A stretch of 64,000 nucleotides of DNA from Eledone cirrhosa (Eukaryota): NCBI GenBank assembly GCA_964016885.1, contig OZ024743.1:43958001-44022000 (forward strand), given 5' to 3'. The notes beneath the pieces are model-generated. The model had not been told where the DNA came from. It saw only the letters and a list, made by a program, of their open reading frames with translations, and did no database searches. The first letter of the stretch is position 1; each line of letters begins with the position of its first letter. The position numbers were made by a program, and so were the translations under genes. This document shows positions 2,644 through 63,992 of the stretch, piece after piece.

Positions 2644-4236
2644 GTAATCTACGCGTTTCATTCTTGTTAGAAATCATCAGGACTACATATCCAGTGCTTT
2701 TATCGAGAATGACACAGCTAGAGACTTATAGAATACTTAGCTGTGTACAGGAACTGGTTTGAAAGAGCGGTTGCCGGTCCGGCAGAAATTAGAAATTGGA
2801 ATAAATGCTCTGAAATAGCGATATATATGTGAATATAGACATAGAATATTCGAAAATATTCTGTATGTTTATAATAAACATTTTGAAGACCTAATCGCTA
2901 TAGAATAGAATACGTCACGTATTACAATTAGATTCTCGATAAAAGCAAGGGAAGTAATCTACGCGTTTCATTCTTGTTAGAAATCATCAGGACTACATAT
3001 CCAGTGCTTTTATCGAGAATGACACAGCTAGAGACTTATAGAATACTTAGCTGTGTACAGGAACTGGTTTGAAAGAGCGGTTGCCGGTTCGGCAGAAATT
3101 AGAAATTGGAATAAATGCTCTGAAATAGCGATATATATGTGAATATAGACATAGAATATTCGAAAATATTCTGTATGTTTATAATAAACATTTTGAAGAC
3201 CTAATCGCTATAGAATAGAATACGTCACGTATTACAATTAGATTCTCGATAAAAGCAAGGGAAGTAATCTACGCGTTTCATTCTTGTTAGAAATCATCAG
3301 GACTACATATCCAGTGCTTTTATCGAGAATGACACAGCTAGAGACTTATAGAATACTTAGCTGTGTACAGGAACTGGTTTGAAAGAGCGGTTGCCGGTCC
3401 GGCAGAAATTAGAAATTGGAATAAATGCTCTGAAATAGCGATATATATGTGAATATAGACATAGAATATTCGAAAATATTCTGTATGTTTATAATAAACA
3501 TTTTGAAAACCTAATCGCTATAGAATAGAATACGTCACGTATTACAATTAGATTCTCGATAAAAGCAAGGGAAGTAATCTACGCGTTTCATTCTTGTTAG
3601 AAATCATCAGGACTACATATCCAGTGCTTTTATCGAGAATGACACAGCTAGAGACTTATAGAATACTTAGCTGTGTACAGGAACTGGTTTGAAAGAGCGG
3701 TTGCCGGTCCGGCAGAAATTAGAAATTGGAATAAATGCTCTGAAATAGCGATATATATGTGAATATAGACATAGAATATTCGAAAATATTCTGTATGTTT
3801 ATAATAAACATTTTGAAGACCTAATCGTTATAGAATAGAATACGTCACGTATTACAATTAGATTCTCGATAAAAGCAAGGGAAGTAATCTACGCGTTTCA
3901 TTCTTGTTAGAAATCATCAGGACTACATATCCAGTGCTTTTATCGAGAATGACACAGCTAGAGACTTATAGAATACTTAGCTGTGTACAGGAACTGGTTT
4001 GAAAGAGCGGTTGCCGGTCCGGCAGAAATTAGAAATTGGAATAAATGCTCTGAAATAGCGATATATATGTGAATATAGACATAGAATATTCGAAAATATT
4101 CTGTATGTTTATAATAAACATTTTGAAGACCTAATCGCTATAGAATAGAATACGTCACGTATTACAATTAGATTCTCGATAAAAGCAAGGGAAGTAATCT
4201 ACGCGTTTCATTCTTGTTAGAAATCATCAGGACTAC
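2644..4236 (-). ncRNA. Six type I hammerhead motifs (one per unit: 2644-2686, 2954-2996, 3264-3306, 3574-3616, 3884-3926, 4194-4236)
   Basis: Minus strand reads GUAGUC-CUGAUGA-UUUCUAACAAGAAU-GAAA-CGCG-UA/GAUUAC: stem I 6 bp, stem II UUCU/AGAA, palindromic stem III. Confidence 0.9.
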
Positions 4237-4607
4237 ATATCCAGTGCTTTTATCGAGAATGACACAGCTAGAGACTTATAGAATACTTAGCTGTGTACAG
4301 GATCTGGTTTGAAAGAGCGGTTGCCGGTCCGGCAGAAATTAGAAATTGCTTTTATCGAGAATCTAATTGTAATACGTGACGTATTCTATTCTATAGCGAT
4401 TAGGTCTCCAAAATGTTTATTATAAACATACAGAATATTTTCGAATATTCTATGTCTATATTCACATATATATCGCTATTTCAGAGCATTTATTCCAATT
4501 TCTAATTTCTGCCGGACCGGCAACCGCTCTTTCAAACCAGTTCCTGTACACAGCTAAGTATTCTATAAGTCTCTAGCTGTGTCATTCTCGATAAAAGCAC
4601 TGGATAT

Positions 4608-5270
4608 GTAGTCCTGATGATTTCTAACAAGAATGAAACGCGTAGATTACTTCCCTTGCTTTTATCGAGAATCTAATTGTAATACGTGACGTATTCTATT
4701 CTATAGCGATTAGGTCTTCAAAATGTTTATTATAAACATACAGAATATTTTCGAATATTCTATGTCTATATTCACATATATATCGCTATTTCAGAGCATT
4801 TATTCCAATTTCTAATTTCTGCCGGACCGGCAACCGCTCTTTCAAACCAGTTCCTGTACACAGCTAAGTATTCTATAAGTCTCTAGCTGTGTCATTCTCG
4901 ATAAAAGCACTGGATATGTAGTCCTGATGATTTCTAACAAGAATGAAACGCGTAGATTACTTCCCTTGCTTTTATCGAGAATCTAATTGTAATACGTGAC
5001 GTATTCTATTCTATAGCGATTAGGTCTTCAAAATGTTTATTATAAACATACAGAATATTTTCGAATATTCTATGTCTATATTCACATATATATCGCTATT
5101 TCAGAGCATTTATTCCAATTTCTAATTTCTGCCGGACCGGCAACCGCTCTTTCAAACCAGTTCCTGTACACAGCTAAGTATTCTATAAGTCTCTAGCTGT
5201 GTCATTCTCGATAAAAGCACTGGATATGTAGTCCTGATGATTTCTAACAAGAATGAAACGCGTAGATTAC
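4608..5270 (+). ncRNA. Three type I hammerhead motifs (4608-4650, 4918-4960, 5228-5270)
   Basis: GTAGTC CTGATGA(4614-4620) TTTCTAACAAGAAT GAAA CGCG TA GATTAC, enclosed by a 15-bp stem TTCTCGATAAAAGCA/TGCTTTTATCGAGAA. Confidence 0.9.
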
Positions 5271-18449: not shown

Positions 18450-21322
18450 ACGACAAATCAGGGCATTGTATACACGACTCCAGCCGCAAGATTTCGAAGT
18501 GTATCCTTCCATATTTACCAATTTACCGGCCGGGTACTAGGCGCACTAACACAGCCAGCCATCACCAAAACACGCTGTCTGCACGTATAGATCGCAGTCC
18601 CCCAAAATCTGCCAACATTCCCAACGTGAGAGGCTATGTCTGCTGACCGACTGTCCCTTTACTCATCTTCCTGGCACACAACGCACGAACAGAAAAGGGG
18701 CTTCATGCCAACCCACAAACCACATAAAGCCACCCCCTGCTGCGGTAATACTGCTCCAGTCTCCTCACAAAGACATGATTACAACAACAAAAACAACAAA
18801 AGTAATGCTGCTCCAGTCTTGTCACAAAGACACGATCACAACAACAACAAATACAACAACAAAAATAACGCTGCTCCAGTCTTTTCACAAAGACACAATT
18901 ACAACAAATACAACAGAAACAACAAAAGAGGGAACTGCAACCCTATCCGATGTTGTAACCACAAATCCAATCAAAAACTGCTTCCTGAACAAAAAGAAAA
19001 TCTTTCTTGTTTAGCCATGAAACTGGCAAAAGAGATAGAGAAAAACATTTTAGCCATCACCCAACACCAACCTTGCTGTCACTAACACACAATCACAAAA
19101 CAAGCTCCCTGCAACAGTCAAAACCAGCCACCATACTAGCCTCCACATTCTTACTGAATACACAAGCTATCAGCCGATCGATCAATGCACAAAAATGGAA
19201 GATCCAATTCATTGAGTATTGGGTTGGTAACCATCCATTTCACATCCCCTTCTTCATTCTTACTGAGACCCACATTGACATCTCCCACTTGGAGGCCGAA
19301 GTAAGAGTGAGTAATTTCACAACCATCCGTGCGGATCGTGTTGGCAGAAGGAAGGGTGGAACTGCCATTTTCCTGCATGATTCCTTTACGGCAGATGGCA
19401 ACCCAACATTCTCTAATGGATACTGTGAGTCAGTCACTGTGTACAATAAATCCAATGACCTGACATTAGTTTGGCTCTATAGGCCACCACAAACACCCAT
19501 AATCTGTTTCAAAGAATGCCTGAACAGTATTAAATGCTTTATTAAACAGTGCCATTCTAGCAACATACTTTTGATGGGAGACTTTAATCTACCCTGTGTC
19601 GATTGATCTACATGTAGTTTGAAACCAGGCTCCACAGCCTCAACCACTGACAAAGAGGCTGTCGAGTCACTTCTTGACTTCATGAATGAGTTTTTCTTGT
19701 CCCAACTTGTCCTTGCACCAACGAGGCATCATAATAACATTCTAGATCTAGTGTTTAGTAAACACACTAACACTATACATAATATTACAGTGGAAAAAAC
19801 CATTCTCTCAGACCATGACATGGTTCTTTGTAACCTGAGATTCCACCAGCCGAAAGCTAATCCCAGGGTCCTCTCTCCAGCCCACCCACTTGATAAAAAG
19901 GATCTCCACAATGCCAACTGGGATGCAATTATGAACGAACTATCACATGTCGACTGGTCTTTTACACACGCACACACTTCCACCAACATCAAAACATCTT
20001 GGCAGATTTTTGTAGACACTATCACAAATATATGTACAAAACACACCCCACCAAAACCTGTGAACAAAACCAAGTGCAGTATGCCCCAAAACAGAAAAAC
20101 AATTATCAGAAAAATAAAAAGAACAAACAAAAAAATTAACACACTAAAATACTGCCAACAGCAACACACACATTCAATGGCTATCACCCTGCTTGAGTCA
20201 AAAAAATGTAACCTCCGGCAATGCATGATGACCATCATCAATAACCAGAGAATAGCTGAACAGAGGTGGGCCATACATAAAATCAAACTCAACCCCAAAG
20301 TTGTCTTCTCATTCGCTAAAAAACACAAGGTCACCGTCTCCACTGTTGGCCCCTAGTTCATGAAAATGGCACACTCCAGGACAATGCCAAAGCCATGGGC
20401 GAGATACTGCAGAAACAGTACTGCTCTGTTTTCAACAACCCTGTTATGGCCGATCTGGGCCGTATCCGTGATATTAACTCCCAACACACTATATCAGACA
20501 TAACGTTTGGCGGCCCTGGTGTCTTAGATGCAATTAACGAAATTAAACACAATTCAGCAGTAGGCCCCGATAGGTTCCCTGCTTGTGTCCTGAAGGTGTG
20601 TCGACACCAACATGCAACTCCTCTTGCTAATCTGTGGAGGATCTCACTGGACACTGGCTATATTCCGTTCTGTCCCAGTCCGTTGTCCCAGTCTTCAAAA
20701 AGGGAAATAGATCCCTTGCAGTGAACTACCGTCCGATCTCACTCAGCTCTCATATTATCAAGGTATTTGAGAGGGTGGTGAGATCACGAATACCCACTTT
20801 CTTGAAAGCAACGGCCTGCTGAAATTCAACCAACATGGATTCCGTAATGGAAGTGACTGCCTAACGCAGCTCCTGCATCACTTTGAGGATGTTTTGAGAG
20901 CCTTGGGGAGGGCTCCAGAACTGATGTCATCTACCTTGATTTCAGCAGGGCCTGCAACAGGGTTGATCATAAGATTCTACTGAAAAAACTATCCAATGTT
21001 GGTGTCTCTGGAAGGTTACTACAGTGGATCAAATGTTTCCTGACAGGCAGAACCCAGCATGTTGTAGTCGAAGGAGTAAATTCAAGCCCTGCCAAAGTCA
21101 GCAGTGGCGTCCCACAAGGCACAGTGATGGGCCCACTTCTTTTCATCATCTACATTAATTACATTACTGACATCATCAAACACATCAACATCAGAATCTT
21201 CGCAGATGATTCCAAGCTCCAAAGGCTCATCAATGAGGTGGTTAACCGGACTTGCCTTCAGTCAGACCTACTGGCTGTTATCCAATGGGCAGAGATGAAT
21301 AATATGCTGTTGAATGAGGATA
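18450..21322 (+). mobile_element. CR1-group LINE (ORF1 remnant, APE and RT), 3'-truncated
   Basis: Cys/His-rich ORF1 remnant with three ~57-60 nt repeats (18750-18920). APE motifs ILTETH, RADR..RKGG.AI, LYRPP, LMGDFNLP, NILDLVF and SDH. RT motifs NYRPISL, SGVPQGTV.GPLLF and FADDSKL. Frameshifted, and cut at ~21322 by a Penelope pLTR. Confidence 0.92.
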
Positions 21323-21324
21323 TA

Positions 21325-21835
21325 TTGACTCCAACAATTACACCACTACCAACATAAGAATAGAGGTCAGATGTACCTAACAATAACAAGAACAACAACT
21401 ACAGATTCGCTTGCCTCAGAACGAATTTCTATATATTTTGACTGAGGAATGTTCTAACAACTGACGATTGAGAGCCGAAGGGGCCCTTTGACGCTGAAAT
21501 TCGTTTGTTTAAATTCATAGGATTCCAGTTTCTCACAGAAATAACAACCCAACCAGGAACTGGGCATAGCAGAGTATTGACAAAGTTATACACCTCAACA
21601 ACATGTGTACTCGTCTCTACCACACTAATTCGGACTGCCTGAAGAGGTCACAGCCAAAAGTGGCAGTCTCCGAAATATATATAGCAGTAATAAACGAAGC
21701 CACATTTCAAACATTTGACTTATTTATTTTATTTTATTATACATCACCCCGGTGTAACAAAACCAACCTGCGAACTTCGTCGAGTGCCCCAATCTGCATA
21801 CTGATGTGTTGGTATACAACCAACATATACTCAAT
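21325..21835 (+). mobile_element. Family A Penelope pLTR (solo copy)
   Basis: Homologous to 23450-23940 (reverse) and 25855-26270. Contains an HHR. Confidence 0.85.
21634..21688 (+). ncRNA. Type I hammerhead, family A
   Basis: ACTGC CTGAAGA GGTCACAGCC AAAAGT GGCAGTCTCC GAAA TATATA TA GCAGT. Confidence 0.85.
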
Positions 21836-23586: not shown

Positions 23587-23641
23587 ACTGCTATATATAT
23601 TTCGGACACAGCCATTTTTGGCTGTGACCTCTTCAGGCAGT
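23587..23641 (-). ncRNA. Type I hammerhead, family A
   Basis: Minus strand reads ACTGC CTGAAGA GGTCACAGCC AAAAAT GGCTGTGTCC GAAA TATATA TA GCAGT. Confidence 0.9.
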
Positions 23642-26166
23642 CCGAATTAGTATGGTAGAGACGAGTACACATGTTGTTGAGGTCAATACTCTGCTAGGCC
23701 CAGTTCCTGGTTGGGTTGTTAATCTCTGAGGAACTGGAATCATATGAATTTAAACAAACGTATTTCAGCTTCTTCAAAGGGCCTCTTCTCCTCTCATTTT
23801 TCAGTTGTTAGAACATTCCTCAGTCAACAGTCTATAGAAATTCATTCTGAGGCAAGCCGATCTGTAGTTGTTGTTCTTGTTATTGTTAGGAACATCTGAC
23901 CTCTATTCTTATGTTGGTAGTGGTGTAATTGTTGGAGTCAGCTCAAAAAAATTATAAAGTGGTAGAAGGAATAACATGGTAAAGGGACAACATAAAATAA
24001 AATGTGTGTGTATGTTATACCCATCTCAATGTTATAAAGATTTGTAAGGTCACTCTTTCAATTGGTCAGTTTTGATAGCATTCCTCATTCCAAAGTCTAT
24101 AGAAATTCTTTCTGGGATGACTCTCCCTGTAGTGTTTGTGTTTGCTATTGTTATGTACATCTGACCTCTAACCTTATTTTATGTAGTGTTTTTGGTGTTG
24201 TGGTCAGCTTATGTCTTGCTGCTGCTGACAATTTAGAAGTATCTGTGTGTGTGTTTCTTAATCCCTCCTGCCACCATCTCCCGTACTGCTGGTGGTGGTG
24301 GTGGTGGGTGTTCTGCCATGTATATGAAGAAATAGAGGCAAGAAAATGAAGAAAACAGAAAATAAACAATAAATAGAGAATAAAGAATAAATGAAAAATT
24401 AATGAAAAAGTAAATGAAAATTAATGGAAAATGAAAATGGAGAATGAAAAATGAAAATGAAAAGTGAAAAATAAAAATGAAGATTCAAATAAAATATGAT
24501 AAAATGTATGTGTGCTATAACCAATCTCAAGGTCAGAAATATGTTGGATAAAGTGGTAGGAGGAACAAGATGGTAAAGAATAAAGCGAAATAAGATAATC
24601 AAATAAAATGTGTGTGTTTTATAACCAATCTCAACATAAATATAAGGTGATAAAGTGAAGAAAACAGAAAACAATAACAAATGAATAATGAGAAATCAAA
24701 AATGAAAAATAAAAAATCCAGTAAAGTAAAATGTGTGTGTGTTATAAAGATGTTGGCCAAATTATAAAGGCTGTGTCAGAATCAATCTCTAGGCTATCAT
24801 GGTGTCTGCTCAGCCAGGGTTGGTCCCTATGGCTTGAGGCGAGTTCCCAACCTATGGTGTTTCTACTGCCTATATAGCTTGAGGGAGGTCTGGCCGAGAG
24901 GTGTCTACATGTTCTGAAGAAGTCCCTATAGCTTGAGGGGAGTTCACATCTTATTGTGTTGCTATTGTGCATATATCTTGAGGAAGATCCCGGCCCTGAG
25001 GTGTCTGCATGTCCTGAATAAGTCGGTCCTGAGGTTTATCAGGCCGCATCCACCTCCTAGTATCTCGAGTATCTCGTTCAGACATAGTTTGCATATGCAA
25101 GATCCCCCTTTATCGGGTGGTACATTCTTGATTATGGACCAGGCCAGAGAGTACGGGGTCCTGTCCAGCTTAAGCTTCCAGATCAGGTCCGAGAGAGCCG
25201 TACTTTTCCTTTTGGCCTCCTTATTGAAGGAATGGGGTTGGTTATACCAGCGGTCTTTAAAGCTCGTTGATGTGACTCCTATGTCGGGGTGTTCTGAGTT
25301 GGGGGTTTTAACCCTACAACCGTATACTAGGTTCTTCTTAAGGCATTCATTACCAAGAGGGCATGATTCGGGGTTTCTGCAGTTTCAGTGGGTGGTGTGA
25401 GCACTGGGTCCCCCTTCTCTCCTTTCACATGGTTCTGCTGAGTGCTTGTATTGCCATCTTCTGGTTCTGGGTGGTTTTTAAGCCTACTCCTGTTGATGCT
25501 AGCTATGTGTTGGGCCATATTTCTCGTGGTGGAATACGAGAGCTTCACAGTGTGTCTGTTGAAGATTTTGTGGTATCTATGGTTGCTCGAGAAGCATTTA
25601 TCAAATACCAAAATAAGGGTAGAGGTCAGATATACTTAACAATAGCAAACACAAACACTACAGGGAGCCTCACCCCAGAAATAATTTCTATAGACTTGTG
25701 ACTGAGGAATGCTCTCAAAACTGACCAATGGGAAGAGTGACCTTACAAATCTTTATAACATTGAGATGGGTATAACACACACACACATTTTATTTTATTT
25801 TATTTTGTCCCTTTACCATCTTATTCCTTCTACCACTTTATCATTTTTTTGAGCTGACTCCAACAATTACACCACTACCAACATAAGAATAGAGGTCATA
25901 TGTACCTAACAATAACAAGAACAACAACTACAGATCGGCTTGCCTCAGAATGAATTTCTATAGACTTTTGACTGAGGAATGTTCTAACAACTGACAAATG
26001 AGAGGAGAAGAGGCCCTTTGAAGAGGCTGAAATACGTTTGTTTAAATTCATATGATTCCAGTTCCTCAGTGAAATAAGGACCCAACCAGGAACTGGGCAT
26101 ACCAGAGTATTGACAAAGTTATACACCTGAACAACATGTGTACTCGTCTCTACCACACTAATTCGG

Positions 26167-26221
26167 ACAGCCTGAAGAGGTAACAGCCAAAAATGGCTGT
26201 CACCGAAATATATATAGCAGT
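26167..26221 (+). ncRNA. Type I hammerhead, family A
   Basis: ACAGC CTGAAGA GGTAACAGCC AAAAAT GGCTGTCACC GAAA TATATA TA GCAGT. Confidence 0.85.
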
Positions 26222-26387
26222 AATAAACGAAGCCAAATTTTAAACATTTGACTTATATATTTTATTTTATTTTATATATATATATATATTGTCAATTTGA
26301 TGGACATGAGAATTACTTATCGCTTATAATAACGTGTTTATTAAAGAGATTGTATTAAAGCCTGGTCACATTCCCCACACTTGATAT

Positions 26388-26437
<50 letters not shown>

Positions 26438-26440
<3 letters not shown>

Positions 26441-27326
26441 TTTCCCAATGTGTAGAAAACTTATAATGAAACGATCGTTTGGAAAGAGAGATGTATTTTA
26501 ATTATGTGTCATATAAAATAATACAACTGGCTATCCGCAAAATACGTATAATTGGGATTATACTAAGGTATATCCTAATGTTTGTTGAGTGAGACGGAAG
26601 CCGGTCGGAGTATTGCTTAAAGATTTCTCTGTTAATGTATTAAATATTATACTCTTGATTTGGCCAGGGATGAATATTTACAGATACTTTTTAGGTATGA
26701 CTTTCCGTATTTATCCTTTGTATGAAATATTGATTGTTCTTCCGATATCTTATCTCCTATAGCCTAAGAAAATACCTATATGCGTGTATAAATGATACAT
26801 GCATATATTTATTTTTTATATCGAATTGAGTTCTTCACGCATGGTTAACATTATTGAAAGAATTATTTGACCCGCTATGGCCCCCCCTTTCCGTTTGATG
26901 GCAGTGTGAGATTTCTCATTGTGAGACTGCTGGAATTTCAAATTTGGCGGTCATTCTAGCACGGAGGGGTACCATCGCTGGACATTAATATCGGTAAGGT
27001 TTTTTTTATATCGATATTTGTCGTGCATCCACTGATGATTTATAAGTGCCCACCTACAAATATTACTACAGACTATGTGTAGGCTTCTACATAACCAGGA
27101 CATTGTTTTCCCAATTTGTAGAAAACTTATGATGAAACGATCGTTTGGAAAGAGTGATGTGTTTTAATTATGTCTCATATAAAATAATACAACTGGCTAT
27201 CCGCAAAATACCTATAGTTAGCACCTCAAACGTATAATTGGGATTATACTAAGGTATATCCTAATGTTTGTTGAGTGAGACGGAAGCCGGTCGGAGTATT
27301 GCTTAAAGCTTTCTCTGTTAATGTAT

Positions 27327-27332
<6 letters not shown>
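26438..27332 (+). mobile_element. Non-coding HHR-delimited element, ~666-nt unit present as ~1.3 tandem copies in (TA)n
   Basis: Direct repeat 26441-26648 / 27107-27332. Predicted cleavage sites after 26479 and 27145. No ORF. Confidence 0.8.
27028..27149 (+). ncRNA. Type I hammerhead with a 95-nt branched stem II
   Basis: TCCA CTGATGA T TTATAAGT [CCTACA..TGTAGG, TTCTACA..TGTAGAA] ACTTATGA T GAAA CGATCG TT TGGA. Confidence 0.8.
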
Positions 27333-27374
<42 letters not shown>

Positions 27375-27375
<1 letters not shown>

Positions 27376-29536: not shown

Positions 29537-29574
29537 CGTTATTCCGGGTTGAATCGGAGGTAACTACAGTAAGT

Positions 29575-31404
29575 ACGTTTCGTTGAGGCTTTCCCGTCTT
29601 TCCACCAATGAACGTATTTTCAACGACCATTCCACATATTACTATGAAGCTCTTGCTCGAAGTGGATTTGTCGATAAGGTAGCATATACAGAGTACGATA
29701 ATAGATCTAGAAGTAATAGACCCCGTCGCATGTGTTGGTATAACCCACCATATAATATGGAGGTGGCCACACCATTAGCTAAGATCTTTCTTTCCCTTAT
29801 TACGAAGCATTTTCCCCCTACACATAAATATAGTAACATTTTTAATAGAAATACTATTAAAATTTCTTACTCTATGACTCCTAACCTTGCACATAACATC
29901 ACAGCTTCAAATTTAGCTAAACTACCTAGCCGTAGAAACACGTGCAACCCTGTAGTTAGTACTAACTGTAATTGCAAGAATCGGGCTGATTGCCCCATTC
30001 TGGGAAATGCCTCTCTAGTAACATTGTCTACAAATGTAAGGTTGTAATACCCATGTCCCGTAGGGCCTACATAGGGTTAACCGCCAATAGATTCAAGCAG
30101 CGTCTTTACATGCATACCCATTCTTTTCGTTACCCTCTAAGAAGGAATATGACGTCACTTTCAGCTTATATCTGGAGTCTAAAAGACAACCACACCCAAT
30201 ATAAGTTACACTGGGAGATCCTAGCTAGGGCTAGATCGTATAACGGAAATAAAAGACCATGTGACCTCTGCGCCGCTGAGGCCCTGGAAATACTCTACGC
30301 CACAGGCCACTTCTTAAACAAAACATCTGAGGCAATTTCGGCTTGTAAACATAAATTGCACAAAACTTTCCTGTATTACAGCCCCACGTTATACCATAAC
30401 GGATACTACGATCTATACGTGGATATTTTACGTCTTGATGTGGGAGCTAAGTATATGTTTTCTTTATACCTTTACTTATTTGCATAGGTAAGTATATATT
30501 ACCCGTATGTTTTGTGAAGGTACGTATACCTTCTCGTACGCATATTTGATTGGTATGGCGTATAATTGTATATATTCTGGTACATATGGCTATGTGTATA
30601 CGGGAGATTTGCGTCTGTGTGAGTATGCAGGTTCGTACGTATGGCGGGTGTGTGTATACGTGTACTTCATGTTTTGTTTGACTTGCGTCTCCGAACATTC
30701 GTGTGATTATATGATGGTATGTGTGTGCGCTTGTTATATACGTATTTATTTATTTATATATGTTTATATAATTATTTATTTATTTGTATACACGCATATA
30801 CACACACACACATATTTATATGTGCGGGGTTTTGTATACCTATGGTAAGTTTTTGCGTATGCTGGTGCATGTACGTATTTGTTTGCGTGTATGTATTTAT
30901 TTATTTCTATTACTTCTGTATTGTATTTATTTACTTTGTTCTTAACTCTGTAGCGGTGATTCATTTGGGCTCCTTGTTAGAATTTTAGTCTACAACTTCT
31001 GCTATACCATTTACGTGGTTTTGTCTTTGCGTGCAATTGTTCTCCACGCTCCACATATGACGTATTATCTTCGTTTTTTCGTTCATTGCCAGAGAACGTC
31101 TCTATGCACCACCTAAGAGAACATTAGTCTACGACCTCTTTTATACCATAAAAGTGGTTTTGTCTTTGCGCGTAATTGTTTTTCACCGCTCCTATTAATG
31201 ACGTATTATTCGTTTTTTCCCGTTCTTTGCCTGCGAACGTTACCACGAACCACAGTATCGTCTTCCTGTCTTCCTCCGGTTGCAACGTTTTTTGAAATAT
31301 CCATTTCTGCGTTTACAGATTGACTTTGTTAGTTTCAGAAGATCCCGTTAAATGTGAAAGCAGCGATTCTTTGCTTAAACTTTAATCTGTTATTTTAATA
31401 AATA
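29575..31404 (+). mobile_element. Penelope-like element 2 (RT thumb, linker, GIY-YIG and 3' region with HHR)
   Basis: [59 protein letters not shown] and CDLCAAE, with a frameshift near 30000. A ~139-nt tandem duplication at 30986-31240. Ends with an HHR and AATAAA. Confidence 0.92.
31315..31390 (+). ncRNA. Type I hammerhead with U4A core (CAGAAGA), family C
   Basis: ACAGATTGA..AGTTT CAGAAGA TCCCGTTAAATGT GAAA GCA..TGC TT AAACT TTAATCTGT, with an extended stem I. Confidence 0.7.
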
Positions 31405-33354: not shown

Positions 33355-34612
33355 TTAGCCATCGGGCTTTAACACTGGCTTAAAGTATTTGAAAGTTGCA
33401 AAGTTCTTGTGCATGCAGTTCGGGCAGTGTTCGGAGAGTTTGTTCAGTAGCGGGCCCTTGGCGAATAACATTTCGTAGCTCCCTGAGAGACAAAGGTCGC
33501 AGCCCTTGTGTCCTCCGTTGTAATATCGCGCTTGCTGGAGTATTTTCCATTTAAGCGTGAAGGGGGTGGAATTCCTTTTGAGGTCCCAAACATAGGAGGC
33601 GAGTGTTGTCTGGTTTGATTTGTCCGGTCTTCTGAAGGAGTGGGTATGGGCATACCAACGGGTCTTAATATTGTTGGAGGTCATGCCGATGTTTTTTTTT
33701 TGTTATTGCAATCATCGTTGCCTGAGATGACATCGCATTTGTATACGATATCATTTGTGAGGTATTTGTTTTCAAGTGGGCATGCTTCCTTATTTAGGCA
33801 ATTACACACAGCCCCAGTCCGGGGATTGGGTTCTGAGGTGGTTGGCTTATTTAATTTTTTAGAATTGTGGTTGGCTATATTCCTAGCTAGGTTAGGTGTG
33901 GTGGAGTAGGAGAGTCTTATTGTGTTCTTATTAAAGATGGTGTGGTACCTATGTTGTATGAGGAAGTGCAATTTCAGCAAAGTGAAGAAAATCCTAGCTA
34001 TCGGTGTAGAGACCTCTCTATTGAAGGGAGGGTTGTACCAGCTAATCTGCCTATGCCTATTCCTCTGCAATCTTGCGGTGGTTTCTAGGTAGGTTATCTT
34101 TTCTTTAAATCCGCTGCGGGCGAGGGCTTCATTGTAGTAGGAGGCAGAGGCGTTCAAAATATCTTTGTTGGCGGAGAGGCCAGATATTCTAATAGAGACG
34201 CTTTTTACTAGGTTATCAGTGATGTTTTGGGGGTGGTTTGAATTAACATTAATATATCTAAGGGACTCGTTAGGTTTGTGGTACGGGTAATAGAGGGAAG
34301 TATCTAGGTCGAGATTGACATCTAAGAAGTTGGTCCTAGTCAAATTAGATTCTATAGTTATACTAAATCCTAGATTAGAGAAGAACGAGCTTAAGTTTTT
34401 CCGAAACCCATCAGTGGTTCTGGGGTTAACCTTATGCAGGGCGAAGAGGCCGTCGTCTCGGTATAAACCTCCGGTTAGGCCGGTAAAGAGGTTCTTCAGG
34501 TGATGTAGGATGTACAAGCCCACAAGGTCGCGAATTTCAGCCGAGTCACTCGCTCCCATGCTAACGTCAAATGGGGTCTGAGATTTCTTGTTGATCCCCA
34601 GTAAGATCCATC
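33355..34612 (-). mobile_element. Penelope-like element 3 (RT core to GIY-YIG), 5'-truncated
   Basis: FDVSMGASDSAEI.DLVGLYIL, GLYRDDGL, NFLDVNLDL, PYHKPN...YINVNSNHP, WYNPPF, IVYKC and GMTSNNIKTRWYAH, with a frameshift at the poly-T near 33695. Confidence 0.95.
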
Positions 34613-34648
34613 GTGGTATATAAATACCATACTTATTTTTTGATACCC

Positions 34649-34699
34649 AGATTCCTGATGATTTCTAAAGAATGAAACAATTCTAGTCCCGTAGAATCT
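34649..34699 (+). ncRNA. Type I hammerhead, family F, inverted at the 5' truncation point of PLE 3
   Basis: AGATTC CTGATGA TTTCTAAAGAAT GAAA C AATTCTAGTCCC G TA GAATCT. Confidence 0.85.
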
Positions 34700-49353: not shown

Positions 49354-52300
49354 AGGTTTAATAACTGGTTATTCTTCTAACTATCCCTTATGAAGTCACC
49401 TTTTATTCGAATTCGTAGAGATATCCCACTAAATACATAATTCATTTTACAAGGATGTGCTACAAACAGAATGGCTGAACACAACATCAACAACAAAATT
49501 AAGGAAGTACCGAAGACAGATAACAAGGAAGGTAATCAAACTTTATTCAGTTGTAGCTACAGAAGAAACCGAAAATATAAATCGCATTTCTCTTGGGGTT
49601 GCGAACTTAATAATGATTTATTTAATTGTTATAAATTGGCAAAAAACAATCCCTTCATTGGCTATATGAATAGAATGAAGTTACACTGGGACGAAATTCA
49701 TCCAGAGCTAAATTATTTCACAGCGAAACAATTACGCCAACAAGCGACGTTTGTTGAACGTAAATATAAGATAAATATTATTAATTGTAAGTTCCTAACA
49801 ACAACACATGTTCTCAACAACACGTGTTATCAACAAACATATTAACAACAACACGTCGCCATGCTACTAGACTTCCTAGTAGCCAGGTCGAACAGCGTCT
49901 TGAAACAACTATGCCTGTAACAAACTTGACACCACCTGTACCATCTAAGTCTACCTCGAATGCTGGGGAAAACACTATCGATAATAATAATAATCGAAGA
50001 AATTTGACACCACGTGTACCATCCGAGTCTACCTCGACTATTGTGGAAAATACTATCGATAATGATAATCAAAAGTATAAACAATTGAAAATTTCCCTCA
50101 ATGAAATCTTCCAGAGAGAAATTAACTCATGTATAAACATATCTCTGGCTGAACGTGTTAAAACGACAATGTTGAATAAAAAACTAAATAATGAAATATT
50201 ACGTGTTGTTGACGAAATAGGGGATTTATATTTACGACGGATAAAAACCCCATGATTTTGGCAAATCAACGCCTGTTTATATGCCTTAGAAATGACAGTG
50301 AAGCATTATCTTGGTGATAGCAGATATATTAACAAGAACAAAACACCACCATAAATACCATCATATATAACTAAAATAGAAAAAAAGATTGCTGACCTAC
50401 GAAAAAACATAAGATATGCTCCTTACATGCAAACAAACACAAAAAACCTCACTCCTCACCAACAATGAGTGAAAAATAAAATAGAGACGATGTTTGGTAA
50501 CAGTAGAACCAGAACTCTCCAATATAATCTGATCACCCTCAAACAAGAATTGAGAGCTCTTAGCGAATAACGCCGATACATTATGAAGGTAGATGAGAGA
50601 AAATTGCTTAATAAAAGATTCAGACGAAACCAAAAGCAGTCTATAGAGATATGAAGGGCAAAATAATAATTGTTACTGAGGCCCCATCCTAGAAAGACAT
50701 AGATTCCTTTTGGAGCAAAATATGGGATGAAAAGATGAATTTCAACGAAGATGCAGTGTGGCTAAGAGATATCCGAAATAACTATTGCTCCTACACTACA
50801 ACAAAAACATACAAAATAAGTGAGGTAACCGTTGAAACTGTGATAGGAAAACTCCAAGATAATAAAACACCAGGAAGAGACATGATTATCGGCTACTGGT
50901 AAAAAAAACTGATATTCTATCGGAGGTATCTTACTGACCTCTATCAACAAGTTCTTAAGGGAGATACACTTATACCAGAATGGTTGACATTAGCACACAC
51001 ATTACTGGTCCCCAAGAAGAAAGACACCCACTTGGCAAAAAACTACCGACCCATTGCATCCCAGAACCTGATGTATAAGATGTATACAGCCTGCCTGAAC
51101 CTATTCCTCCAAGATCACTGTGAAAATAATAACATCATCACAGATGAACAGACAGCTGGAAAGAAAACGGTTTGGGGATGTGCTGAACAACTCCTAAACA
51201 ACAAAACTGCGATGTCGGAGGTGCGACACCTTAGGAAGAATATGACTACAGTCTGGCTGGACTACAGGAAAGCTTTTGATTCTGTTTTCCTACTCTTGGA
51301 TGATAGAGGCCCTCCAACTTGCTAACGTCCCACACATTATTGTCAGGGCCATAGAGAGGCTGTCTTCTTCTGGGCTACTATCCTAAGGTTAAAGACAGAG
51401 AGGGAGGACTCTATTTTCAGTGTTAAAATAAAATATTGCAGGGGTATATCTCAGGGGGACAGTCTCTCTGTGATATTATTCATCTTGTCATTAAACCCCT
51501 TGTCATTTCTGCTTAAGAAATGTGAGGGATACATCATTGGCTCACATGAGGGCAGAAATACGAACCAAACCCATAATTCCTTTGTGGACGATCTGAAATT
51601 CCTATGCCAAGAACATTGATGGGATGAAGAAAAATCTTGACCTGGTTACAACTTTCTCAAAGGAAATAGGAATGGAGTTTGGCCAAGATAAATTCTCATA
51701 CATGACAGTAAAGCGGGGAAAAACAACAACCCAATCTAGCAACATTGTCATCAATGACCTAACTGTTTCACCGATATTTGATGAGGACTGCTACAGATAA
51801 CTGGGTATAGATGAGAACAAATCCTATAATGGTATATGTAATAAAGAACGCATAACCAAGGAATACTACATTCGATTAAGAACGATCTGGTCATCGGACC
51901 TTTCTGCGCAAAACAAAACAATGGCTCACAATGTGTTTGCTGTGCCTGTCCTAACACCAACGTTTGGAATACTCAATTGGAAGATAGACGAAATCCGAGC
52001 AGTTGATGTTGGAACTTAAATAATACTGAACAACACCGGAAACTTCCACATCAACAGTGACATAGACCGCCTTTACTTGAAAGGTAAGCAGGGAGGCAGA
52101 GGCCTAGCATCAGTCCAGACAACATTTGAATGTCGCATCATATCTCTCCGACAACATCTACGAACCTCGAAGCGTAGGAGCCTGTCACTCGAGCAAGTCT
52201 ATCTGCATGAAACAGATACGATCATGAGAGTTGGGAAGGAACGCCTCGAGAGATATTCCCTGTGTGATTATCAAAACCTCATACCCAGAGATGTCGCTCA

Positions 52301-53340
52301 GCAGTATGGCAGTGAATCCATGGATGAAAAACTGCATGCCTATCAGCAAAAAATCATACATGGATATGTTGCGAGGAAGCTCCAGAGTGAGAGTAATATA
52401 CATAAAGAAAGTAGTCTATCTTGGACCAGCAACCGCTATATTGGCTCCCACTTTGAAGGATACGCTTTTGAAATCCAGGAACAGGAGTTTAGCACGAAAT
52501 ACCTGATTCACAAAAGAGATAGGGATGCAGGCAAAACACCTAGATGTGATAACAAGTGCATACTCTGCAGAACTAACATCGAGGATATCACCCATGTCAT
52601 CAGCAGCTGTCCAAAGATGTCATCGCGGTACTATCTACCTATCAGGCATGATGTTGTGGCCAAAACACTGTACAATGCAGTTCGTAAAAAAGATAGCCCC
52701 GATAATAAACACATTAAAAGCTACAGCAACCTGGAAGACATCCATGTACATAATATGAAAGAGTACTGGTGGATTCTTCCAGTAAAAACCCAAATAAAAT
52801 GCAGGCCTAACAGACCAGATATTATGATATGGGACAGGGAGAAGAAAGCATACACAGTAGTGTAAATTAGCTGCCCAGCAGATGCCAATATAATATCAAA
52901 GATTAGTGAAAAGGTGAACATTTATGCAGAACTGATGAGAAATCTGCAGATACTCCACCCTGATTACACCTTCAGATTTATGCCTGTGATTATTGAGGCA
53001 TGGGATATGTTAGTAACTGCTTCAATACAAATCTAGAGAAGCTAGGCTTCACAGGAACAGAAAGAACACAACTAGTTAGGAAATTACAAGTACAATCCAT
53101 TAATGGAACAGTAAAAATATGTAAGACATTCCAAAAATGTTGCATCTAATAACTGCATATACACTTATACAGATGCAAAGCATATACACATGCACACATA
53201 CAACTCAAAACATACACATCCACACATACAATAACATCCATATCTACACATGCATGCATACATAATCTACTTAGTTGATGTTGTGTAAATTCCATTTTCT
53301 ATTGGGAAAAAAATTGTTAAATTATAAAACCAGAAGAACG
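49354..53340 (+). mobile_element. R4/Dong-like site-specific non-LTR retrotransposon (RT, CCHC and RLE endonuclease), decayed, near full length
   Basis: KNYRPIA..NLMYK, VWLDYRKAFDSV, GISQGDSLS, FVDDLK, GGRGL, CILCRTNIEDITHVISSC..Y..RHD.V and NRPDIMIWDREKK...ISCP (PD-D/ExK). Many stops. Bounded by (TACA)n. Confidence 0.92.
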
Positions 53341-61599: not shown

Positions 61600-63992
61600 G
61601 ACGTGTAAAAACATATAACAAATAAAATTCAACAATCGAAGTCCTCAATAGGGAGGGGACGTTGACGTGGGTCGCACACACCCCCGAAAAAAATGTGCAA
61701 CCCTACTCCTCATCAGGAGCACAAAGAGCGTGTGCTCCCTTCCTATCCTCTTTCTTCTCCTCTCTCACCTATATAAAACTTGCTGGGGTAGAGCACCTCT
61801 CTCTCCATTCTGATCTTTCTTCTAAAATGGTATTTGAAAAAAAGGACCAGTTGTTGACACGGAGGGAAAGGTGCCTGACATCAGCCCTTTCAACCTCGTC
61901 CACCATTCAACCTCTTTAGCCATAGAGGAAAACCGCCTCACCTCTGTTTTGAATAGGGGGGGGGGGCGGTTTGATCGTGATAATGTACTCGGTGGTGAAC
62001 AGGATTGGTCCCACCCGCTACAGTAGTTGTTCCACATAGCCCCACAGGTCAGCAACGTCCGGGCAGTGTACGAATGCGTGCGCGACGGTTGCTTCGTCAC
62101 GCACGCATCTCGGACAGATCTTTTTCGAGGGGTCCCTACCCGGGCGCCCGTGTCTGTAGAACTTGCCCCGAACGGGTAGAGCTCCTCGGTAGCACTGCCA
62201 AGCCATAGACTTTTGGAAATTGTTCATCGGTCCCGGGCCAAACGTCCTACCGAACAGACTGGCTACTTCGTCTTCCTTCATGCCCAGAGATTCTTCGAGA
62301 GCGACGTCGCACTTTCTGCGCACCAACCCTCTATAGAATGTCGAGGTGGAGTCTCCACTGATTGCCGGATCCGCTTGCCAGAGGGCCGTGAGCGCCTCGT
62401 CACATTCAATGTGCCACTCGCCCACTTTTCTCAGTCTTTGCTTGACTCAGGATTGCAGCTCGGTGAGCGAGACGAGTCTCGGAAAGGCTCGGCTCACAAA
62501 AGGGGACCACACCGGTTGACCTGTTAGAAATACCTGGAGGTGCCGTAGCCTTAATGCATGTTTACGCATCGTCAGCCATGGCACCCACAGCCCTCCATTC
62601 GAAGACTGTTGACAGCAGATGGATCTTCTCACCAAAGGGGCCCGCTTCTTCCAAAGGGATTGGAAGAGCGCGCACTCCATTTTGGCGAGCGTTTCGCTGG
62701 GCAAGGCACGACGGTCAAGTGGTAGTAGATGACAGACGCTATATAAGTGTTCGCCACCTCCGCTCGACCTGTTAGGGATAGTTTGCACTCGGCCCACTTC
62801 TAGGCGAGTGCAAACACCCTGCCCGTTACCTCGTCCCAGATTTTCTCCACCTGGAGGTTTGGTCCGAACCAGATCCCGAGCAGCTTCACCGGTCCTCCGT
62901 CCCACGTCCGACGACGCTGTCGGAGGGCATCGGTTTGGCTCTCCATGTTCCGAGTTGCAAACCGACGGACTTGTCCCGGTTCAGCTTGGCTCCTGTAAAC
63001 CTTTCGTATTCCTCCAGTATGTGCCGATCTCCCCGATTTGCGAGACGCTCGACACCATTACTGTCACATCATCGGCGTAGGCCGACAACGCTTTCCCCAA
63101 TCCCGGTTCCAAGGCGATGCTCTGTAACAGCTCCAACTTCCGCAGTAATAGCTCGAGAGCCAGCACATACAGAAGGGAGGACAGAGGGCATCCCTGTCGG
63201 ATGGATCGCGTGATTTGGAACGGCTCCGACAGGTAGCCGTTAACCTTGACCCTCAAACAGGTGTTGCCGCTGTGCATTGCAGCAATACAGCCCCTGAAAA
63301 CGGGTCCGATGCCTGTCGCCGCGAACACCGCATCCAGGTACCGATGGTCGACCCTATCGAACGCCTTAGATTGATCCAAGTTGATCAGGGCCCCACCAAA
63401 GCTGGGTGCATTCCCTACCATATCTACGATGTATGGCATGAGATGGAGGTTGTCGTGTATGGACCTGGACGTGATTGCGCATGTCGGCCCTTCTCCCACC
63501 AGGTTCCTGAGGACAAGCGCCAACCTCTTCCCTAACACCTTGGCCAAAATATTTAACTCTGTATTTAGCAGAGTTATGGGTCTGAAGTTATCTATGTCAT
63601 CCCCCTTGTTCTCATCCTTCCTGACTAGCGTGAATACGCCCTTGGTCACAGAACTGGGAATTCTCCCGTTCTGTTGCCAGTTGCAGTAGACCGCCTCGAG
63701 GAGCTCAAGTCCGGCATCGCTACATAATGTTCGTATGGTAGACCATCGAGACCCGGAGATTTGTGTTTGCCGCATCGGCTCAGCGCTTTCCCTATTTCAG
63801 CGGCTGACAGAGAGATGCATAGATCTCAAAGTCGTCGAAGATGGGGGCCAGTTGGTGCTCGCTGCTGATCCTGGACTCGCAAATAGCTATTACATCCATT
63901 CTGTGCGACCTGAGGTCATTTAAGTGTTTGCCCTGCTTCCAGGATATCCCCAGGCCGCACACATTTAAACATCCAACTCTTATGACAGCCAT
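61600..63992 (-). mobile_element. L1/Tx1-type LINE ORF2 (APE N-terminus, internal deletion, RT, zf-RVT)
   Basis: MAVIRVGCLNVCGL..DVIAICES (APE start), NFRPITLLN, LINLDQSKAFDRVDH, IRQGCPLS.LLY, SAYADD, GGL and CPRC....TVAHAFVHCP. Frameshifted. Confidence 0.93.

What the first reader, a model, noticed from the sequence alone, without database searches (positions are those of the whole stretch)
26438..27332. 666-nt ORF-less unit delimited by hammerheads with a 95-nt branched stem II
Seen in sequence: a canonical CUGAUGA and GAAA-CGAUCG-UU are separated by an 8-bp stem II base that opens into two further hairpins. The 3' half of the same HHR recurs 666 nt upstream, giving cleavage site-to-site monomer geometry. 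Established: stem II is usually short. Inference: a second, larger retrozyme-like RNA whose ribozyme carries an extra domain, possibly for RT binding or regulation.
Basis: partly seen in the sequence, partly recalled or inferred. Interest (0 to 1): 0.72.

Follow-up and report, generated by a model that had tools for sequence, protein, structure and literature searches.

The report
Branched oversized hammerhead in Penelope parasite
A non-coding jumping repeat with about 3,000 copies in this animal genome carries a hammerhead RNA motif with an unusually large two-armed side domain; broken ends of its copies pile up at the predicted cut site, so it likely cuts itself and is likely copied by the enzyme of a Penelope-type retrotransposon.

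Summary
The motif is real: CUGAUGA, a 95-nt stem II, GAAA and palindromic stem III (27028-27149); its 3' half recurs 666 nt upstream. It lies in a non-coding repeat family (2,977 exact matches, control 0) with 664-995-nt monomers, a fixed 3' end on (TA)n and head-to-tail partial tandems. The hammerheads do not bound the element; 666 is this copy's deleted spacing (family about 720). Across subfamilies stem II keeps a three-way junction: one arm covaries, the other is invariant and so untested. Stem III stays palindromic through three double changes, pointing to dimer cleavage. Upstream-copy 5' ends pile up at the predicted cut (15 of 87; 3.2 expected; scan-corrected P 0.016), indirect evidence of cutting. 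None of 30 junctions leads into an ORF; a Neptune-type Penelope element shares the 3' terminus (28 of 36 nt) and is the likely helper. Several ORF-bearing Penelope families here also have 90-105-nt stems II, mostly unbranched. Verdict: new variant of animal non-LTR retrozyme. Cleavage, circles and the arms' role are untested. The scan reported what reads as this family before, on other DNA (e1-8673761).

The parts
26391..26437 (.). (TA)n target microsatellite, left flank
26438..26644 (+). 5'-truncated upstream partial monomer; holds only the 3' half of the hammerhead (site after 26479) and has a 20-nt deletion
26645..27330 (+). Full non-coding monomer, 686 nt, 35% GC (boundary ambiguous by about 3 nt because TAT is shared with the target); longest Met-ORF in the whole unit 33 aa on + and 50 aa on -
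26987..27018 (+). Hairpin just 5' of the ribozyme; kept with changed pairs in sister subfamilies (seen by eye, not counted)
27023..27026 (+). GGGC in the family (GTGC here); candidate partner of the junction GCCC (pseudoknot or off-state hairpin); near-invariant, no covariation
27028..27038 (+). Stem I 5' strand UCCA and core CUGAUGA
27039..27133 (+). 95-nt stem II: U.U, 8-bp base (27040-27047 with 27125-27132), junction GCCCA (27048-27052), arm A (27053-27083, covarying), arm B (27085-27123, outer 7 bp invariant)
27134..27149 (+). GAAA, palindromic stem III ACGAUCGU, predicted GUU cut after 27145, stem I 3' strand UGGA
27296..27330 (+). Fixed 3' terminus about 185 nt after the cut; resembles the 3' terminus of the Neptune-type element at 31371-31403
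27331..27375 (.). (TA)n target microsatellite, right flank
29560..31403 (+). Separate 5'-truncated Penelope-type element (linker, GIY-YIG-like region, 3' UTR); its family is the candidate helper; not part of the unit

Best explanation
This is one decayed copy of a non-coding repeat family of about 3,000 copies, with a fixed 3' end on (TA)n and a type I hammerhead motif whose 95-nt stem II is predicted to fold as a three-way junction; it is likely a non-autonomous retroelement (retrozyme) that cuts its own RNA as a dimer and is likely copied by a Neptune-type Penelope enzyme. Steps: (1) Shown: dispersed copies, partial tandems and at least one long array. (2) Inferred: read-through gives multimeric RNA; two hammerheads pair through the stem III palindrome and cut slowly, so some internal sites stay uncut. 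(3) Inferred: the helper's endonuclease nicks (TA)n and its reverse transcriptase starts at the fixed site about 185 nt downstream of the cut, which resembles the helper's own end. (4) Shown as a pattern, inferred as a cause: synthesis crosses one hammerhead and one junction and often stops at or just 3' of the next cut site, as expected if the template's 5' end was made by self-cleavage. (5) Shown by comparison: both arms are conserved. Arm A keeps its pairing while its sequence changes; arm B and the GCCC/GGGC pair keep their sequence. Inferred role: a folded handle on the RNA (protein binding or gating of cleavage), not needed for core chemistry.
For: Family size and control. Fixed 3' end: of 92 distinct ends in 76 loci, 60 are followed by TA, 29 by the next monomer, 3 by neither under the strict rule. 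331 head-to-tail junctions; 30 of 30 fetched have no Met-ORF over 93 aa in the next kb, and 25 of 30 show the next end at 664-995 nt. An array with 17 stem-III motifs lies in L219-L220. Structure: 94.8% of cells paired versus 31-51% when slid; covariation score 0.151 versus 0.108, 0 of 500 shuffles; 13 representatives, 6 pairs with double changes: 3 in arm A, 1 closing stem II, 2 in stem III. Stem III: 93 of the first 100 listed matches are perfect palindromes of three kinds (64, 21, 8; counted by eye); one kind changes the central pair, which can form only between two molecules. 5' ends: 15 of 87 lie within -2..+17 of the cut, 3.2 expected; all 15 are in U.U/GUU subfamilies. Helper: 28 of 36 terminal nt match the Neptune-type family versus 12-20 for 8 other element ends; that family has RT motifs and a C-terminal nuclease-like region. 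Published: dimer-dependent type I hammerheads in Penelope elements (PMC4209133); a U.U variant in axolotl that cleaves (PMC7229834); internal fixed RT start sites (PMC11167929).
Against: No cleavage or RNA was observed. The count of pairs with double changes in the 58-row alignment is not above shuffles (153 of 500), and rows are related, so shuffle counts are not probabilities. Arm B and the GGGC/GCCC helix never covary. One small cluster (L032-L035) breaks two arm A pairs. Six of the 15 piled-up ends sit at +11, an ATATAT patch that matches the target in the subfamilies that carry it; without them 9 remain (P 0.004). The window was fixed with the data in view; scan-corrected P is 0.016. Genome-wide pattern counts show a step, not a sharp spike, at the cut: per strand 40 for -60..-30, 60 for -23..+7, 203 for +8..+38, the last inflated by intact copies. 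The commonest subfamilies have U.U, a GUU site and a 12-nt palindrome that could over-pair; predicted minimum-energy folds of monomer and dimer are not the active fold. Eight of 9 Xenopus retrozyme dimers did not cleave in vitro (10.64898/2026.07.22.740005). No ORF-bearing element with this same hammerhead was found. Pfam did not name the helper's domains above cut-off.
Confidence: 0.78

Rival explanations
1. The hammerhead is a vestige in the U.U/GUU subfamilies: the fold is kept as a handle for the helper protein, and 5' ends gather near the site because of ATATAT microhomology or polymerase stalling at folded RNA.
For: U.U base, GUU site and possible over-pairing; 6 of 15 ends at one microhomology; in the anole Poseidon element, ribozyme-dead mutants still inserted in vitro and no RNA reads ended at the site (PMC11167929).
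Against: Core, stem I and palindrome are kept in all 9 clusters (rows were picked by a core pattern, but the DNA-similarity set shows the same). Other TA-rich patches and the 3' edges of stronger helices show no pile-up. Nine ends remain without the +11 class.
Confidence: 0.15
2. The main template is a ligated monomer circle copied by rolling-circle reverse transcription, as proposed for retrozymes, rather than a partly cut linear multimer. This differs from the best reading only in the template.
For: Greater-than-unit copies and seamless junctions; monomers fold well as circles (z -2.6 to -7.4 on the + strand, 12 shuffles each); circles are shown for coral, mussel and axolotl retrozymes (PMC7229834).
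Against: A closed circle has no 5' end, so second-round stops at the cut site need re-cutting during copying. Genomic tandems explain the junctions equally well. The minus strand also folds better than shuffles (z -1.6 to -7.4).
Confidence: 0.4
3. The unit is only the terminal repeat (pLTR) of an ordinary ORF-bearing Penelope element, with the ORF lost in this copy.
For: Other long-stem-II hammerheads here lie downstream of Penelope-type ORFs on the same strand (L071, L080, L081, L085, L086, L088).
Against: 30 of 30 junctions lead into a non-coding unit. ORF fragments next to family copies (L008, L016, L057, L069) are separated by (TA)n and have their own ends. Monomer length varies by internal duplication.
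Confidence: 0.04

Closest known systems
Animal non-LTR retrozymes (Cervera and de la Pena 2020, PMC7229834, passages and section 14 read; Li, Clavereau and Pollet 2026, 10.64898/2026.07.22.740005, parts 1-3 of 5 read)
   Same: Non-coding, AT-rich, one type I hammerhead per unit, monomers to multimers, weak palindromic stem III; U.U at the base of stem II is known (axolotl HHR_Amex2); co-occurs with Penelope elements.
   Different: Monomer 664-995 nt versus about 170-400 nt in the tested cases (51-972 in the vertebrate survey); stem II of 95 nt with a three-way junction versus a short hairpin; no archetypal loop 1-loop 2 contact seen; mostly dispersed 1-1.5-mers; expression and circles not shown.
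[quoted passage not shown]
   Same: Short stem I (4 bp), longer-than-usual stem II base (8-9 bp), small palindromic stem III, dimer design, position near the 3' end.
   Different: The published metazoan helix II is 6-8 bp in the text read; here it opens into two further arms, and the carrier has no ORF.
Neptune-clade Penelope elements and non-autonomous PLE derivatives (Craig et al. 2021, PMC8557442, passages read)
   Same: (TA)n target, partial tandems, 5' truncation, 3'-end similarity between non-autonomous and autonomous families (described there for Chlamys).
   Different: No ORF; inverted two-armed insertions are rare here (0 of 76 loci by strict rule; seen in L086 and a short one in L012).
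Pseudoknotted hammerheads (Perreault et al. 2011, PMC3088659, passages read)
   Same: A possible helix between a strand next to stem I and a loop of stem II.
   Different: Here the loop is a three-way junction 9 bp from the core while stem I is 4 bp; there is no covariation; it may be an off-state hairpin instead.

Membership tests
Type I hammerhead ribozyme | CUGANGA and GAAA core, stems I-III, A15.1-U16.1, NUH site | tested here: met
   H is U, C or A across subfamilies (75, 16, 9 of 100 listed; the pattern required H)
Type I hammerhead ribozyme | G10.1-C11.1 pair | tested here: not met
   U.U in this copy and in 27 of 58 rows, G-C in 31; U.U is a known tolerated variant (PMC3088659, PMC7229834)
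Type I hammerhead ribozyme | Match to a curated Rfam hammerhead model | tested here: not met
   gathering threshold; the short hammerheads in the window were missed as well
Type I hammerhead ribozyme | Site-specific self-cleavage | not testable with these tools
   indirect only: 5'-end pile-up
Animal non-LTR retrozyme | Non-coding unit with one type I hammerhead per monomer | tested here: met
Animal non-LTR retrozyme | Head-to-tail tandem copies with at least two complete hammerheads | tested here: met
   met for the family (L012, L013, L029, L036, L068, array L219-L220); not for the window's copy
Animal non-LTR retrozyme | Expression as linear and circular monomer RNA | not testable with these tools
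   needs host RNA
Animal non-LTR retrozyme | Highly self-paired monomer | tested here: inconclusive
   63-65% paired, z -2.6 to -7.4, 12 shuffles only; the minus strand also scores
Non-autonomous Penelope-like element | Fixed 3' end, variable 5' truncation, partial tandems, microsatellite target | tested here: met
Non-autonomous Penelope-like element | 3'-end similarity to an autonomous family | tested here: inconclusive
   28 of 36 nt plus a similar junction versus 12-20 for 8 other ends; short and AT-rich; no similarity over the rest
Autonomous Penelope-like element | RT plus GIY-YIG ORF between pLTRs | tested here: not met

The most novel reading that the evidence does not exclude
Penelope (Neptune-type) elements of this lineage use a class of giant-stem-II hammerheads in which stem II is a protein-docking domain that gates cleavage. 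The invariant arm B carries a UACAUA(A/G)/UUGUA helix-plus-loop that recurs, in inverted orientation, in the rod-shaped stems II of other ORF-bearing families; it would be a binding site for the retroelement protein, coupling self-cleavage to loading of the reverse transcriptase. Thousands of such ribozymes would be invisible to current descriptors.
Probability: 0.2. Interest if true: 0.78.

Novelty: new variant of a known kind. Interest (0 to 1): 0.52.

Why it matters
Natural animal hammerheads are described with a stem II of 4-8 bp. A conserved 95-nt branched stem II, and 90-105-nt stems II in several ORF-bearing Penelope families of the same genome (9,482 pattern hits versus 40 control; some are chance pairings), means standard searches miss a large set of ribozymes. 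The family also gives two ready tests of open questions: whether Penelope-associated hammerheads cut in vivo (the 5'-end pile-up suggests so, even for U.U/GUU cores) and which enzyme mobilises a retrozyme (a named candidate with a matching terminus). It is not a new class of element.

Tried and rejected
Rfam scan: only a tRNA-like hit elsewhere. RNA evidence: no RNA holder listed; contigs of three runs showed only that related sequence is present, also in a second coded organism; neither bears on expression. A genome-wide scan with the covariance model was not possible, so model R1 was run only on the window and 50 fetched loci: it finds the family (E below 1e-23) but the other long-stem families only weakly (E 0.002 or worse), so homology of those stems to this one is not shown. 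ORF fragments beside family copies (L008, L016, L057, L069) were first taken as possible parents and rejected: they are separate insertions into the same (TA)n. Local alignments of monomers to Penelope 3' UTRs gave only low-complexity matches apart from the terminus. A sharp genome-wide spike exactly at the cut was looked for and not found. A relic second hammerhead at the 3' terminus was considered by eye and left as speculation. Pfam did not name the helper's domains; 'Neptune' rests on motifs recognised from recall plus the linker and target described in PMC8557442. Literature searches for a natural branched or very long stem II found none. Lunse et al. 2017 on dimeric Penelope hammerheads is not held and is recalled only. 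No supplementary files were read; alignments there could hold long-stem examples. Row L158 was dropped from the 5'-end count as mis-mapped.

Full report
Observation. The window holds, on the + strand, UCCA-CUGAUGA (27028-27038), 95 nt, GAAA-CGAUCG-UU and UGGA (27134-27149), a type I hammerhead layout with the predicted cut after 27145. The 95 nt fold as a U.U mismatch and 8 bp that open into two hairpins (z -2.4, 5 of 200 shuffles as good). The 3' half recurs upstream with its site after 26479, 666 nt away. The upstream copy begins at a (TA)n run and lacks CUGAUGA. Rfam does not report the motif.

What the unit is. The window lies in a 3.0-Gb animal genome. A 501-nt internal probe gave 3,092 candidates, 40 scored. 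A 33-nt pattern on the ribozyme's 3' half gave 2,977 exact matches versus 0 for the control. Copies share a fixed 3' end about 185 nt past the cut. Of 92 distinct ends in 76 loci, 60 run into TA, 29 into the next monomer and 3 into neither by the strict rule. 5' ends vary. There are 331 exact head-to-tail junctions. In 30 of 30 fetched, the next kilobase has no Met-ORF over 93 aa; 25 of 30 show the next end 664-995 nt on. One array holds 17 stem-III motifs in 20 kb. So the window's copy is a 1.3-mer: a 686-nt monomer (26645-27330) preceded by a truncated 207-nt piece. The spacing 666 reflects a 20-nt deletion upstream and a ~34-nt deletion in the monomer; close relatives are about 720 nt.

Is the branched stem II real? 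RNAalifold on 58 distinct copies predicts the same three-way junction. With the structure named, 94.8% of cells pair versus 31-51% when slid, and the covariation score exceeds 500 of 500 shuffles, though the number of pairs with double changes does not (153 of 500 reach it) and the rows are related. On 13 representatives, chosen by me to span the nine clusters, six pairs change on both sides: three in arm A, the pair closing the stem II base, and two in stem III. Arm B (7 + 3 bp) never varies among them, so it is conserved in sequence but not tested by covariation. One small cluster (L032-L035) breaks two arm A pairs. The base pair 10.1-11.1 switches between G-C and U.U. The junction GCCC is complementary to a GGGC just 5' of stem I; both are near-invariant, without covariation. 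The predicted dimer fold uses them as a hairpin that hides the core, so this is either a tertiary contact or an off state. The window's copy has a mutation in this GGGC and two in arm A.

Stem III. Of the first 100 matches listed, where these five positions were free, 93 are perfect palindromes of three kinds (ACAATTGT 64, ACGATCGT 21, ACGGCCGT 8; counted by eye) and 7 differ by one base. The third kind changes the central pair, which cannot form within one molecule. This is the dimer design described for animal and Penelope hammerheads (PMC4209133, parts 1-2 of 4 read; PMC7229834, passages and section 14). By inference, the complete ribozyme in the window could cut the upstream half-site in such a dimer.

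Does it cut? Not shown directly. As an indirect test I mapped the 5' end of the upstream piece at 88 junctions: the first 100 listed of 331, less 5 already held and 7 inside the array; a few pairs belong to one insertion. L158 was dropped as mis-mapped. Fifteen of 87 end within -2..+17 of the predicted cut, against 3.2 expected from the rate elsewhere (P 1e-6; window fixed with data in view; scan-corrected P 0.016). Six end at +11, an ATATAT patch matching the target; without them 9 remain (P 0.004). All 15 belong to U.U/GUU subfamilies. Genome-wide patterns show a step at the cut rather than a spike: per strand 40 ends in -60..-30, 60 in -23..+7 (20 of 30 listed loci within -2..+7), and 203 in +8..+38, inflated by intact copies. 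Run-off from a cleaved 5' end followed by joining at the nearest TA-like patch fits best; stalling or microhomology alone is not excluded. Note e1-8664355, on another family, suggested this test. Against activity: the U.U base, the GUU site, possible over-pairing of a 12-nt palindrome, non-active minimum-energy folds, and the report that 8 of 9 frog retrozyme dimers were inactive in vitro (10.64898/2026.07.22.740005, parts 1-3 of 5 read). In the anole Poseidon element the hammerhead cut only with protein present and was not needed for insertion in vitro (PMC11167929, parts 1-2 of 4 read).

Who copies it? The fixed 3' end, 5' truncation, partial tandems and (TA)n target are Penelope-element features (PMC8557442, passages read). 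[quoted passage not shown] The Atlas neighbours are RT/HTH_animal clusters; Pfam gave nothing above cut-off. I call it Neptune-type from recalled motifs. Its last 36 nt match this family's at 28 positions, versus 12-20 for eight other element ends, and the bases after the junction are alike too. This makes it the likely helper; the match is short and AT-rich.

How unusual is the long stem II? A loose pattern for cores 85-110 nt apart gave 9,482 hits versus 40 control (some are chance pairings). Fetched examples include several other families with 90-105-nt stems II, mostly predicted as irregular rods, and six loci have Penelope-type ORF remnants upstream on the same strand. Model R1 scores them only weakly. 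So oversized stems II are a habit of Penelope-associated hammerheads in this genome; the three-way junction is this family's form. Four related rod-type families share a TACATA/TTGTA helix-plus-loop with arm B, in inverted orientation, and four other families lack it; this is a lead only. In the papers read, 'long' helix II means 6-8 bp (PMC4209133; PMC13725137, passages). Searches found no natural branched stem II; PMC3088659, PMC10085705 and PMC13282606 were read as passages only; supplements were not read, and Lunse et al. 2017 is not held.

Verdict. A real, conserved feature in a known kind of element: a non-LTR retrozyme, or non-autonomous Penelope derivative, with a new hammerhead variant. 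It works like published retrozymes by inference; formal membership lacks the RNA evidence.

Noticed in passing
window 2680-5234: Two-armed array of about 310-nt units, each with a short type I hammerhead (14-nt stem II, palindrome ACGCGT): six on the minus strand, three on the plus strand.
   Followed up: no
window 21400-21740, 23600-24200, 25600-26280: Another hammerhead-bearing repeat (CUGAAGA, 26-nt stem II, TATATA palindrome) with about 270-nt internal repeats, in inverted arrangement.
   Followed up: no
window 31330-31403; L112-L130: The candidate helper family ends in its own short hammerhead-like motif (core CAGAAGA in most copies, U.U base, CUU site about 25 nt before the end; read by eye) and has a second end or tail after the junction.
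   Followed up: partly
L071:1470-1655: A copy of the helper's 3' UTR that lacks about 750 nt starting at AG|GTAAG, as if spliced.
   Followed up: no
L071-L090: At least seven other families with 90-105-nt stems II and palindromic stem III; six loci have Penelope-type ORF remnants upstream.
   Followed up: partly
L219-L220 (G000:C2:312265500-312285300): Tandem array of this family mixing units of about 746 and 998 nt.
   Followed up: partly
L067:690-830: A family copy joined directly to the end of a helper-like element at the shared TCTGTT motif; possible template switch or targeting; single case.
   Followed up: no
window 34655: Hammerhead-like motif with a 12-nt stem II and 6-bp stem I, on the strand opposite a Penelope-type ORF remnant at 33681-34664.
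   Followed up: no
window 18989-21357, 52020-52865, 62018-63796: Decayed LINE-type fragments (endonuclease, RVT_1, zf-RVT).
   Followed up: no
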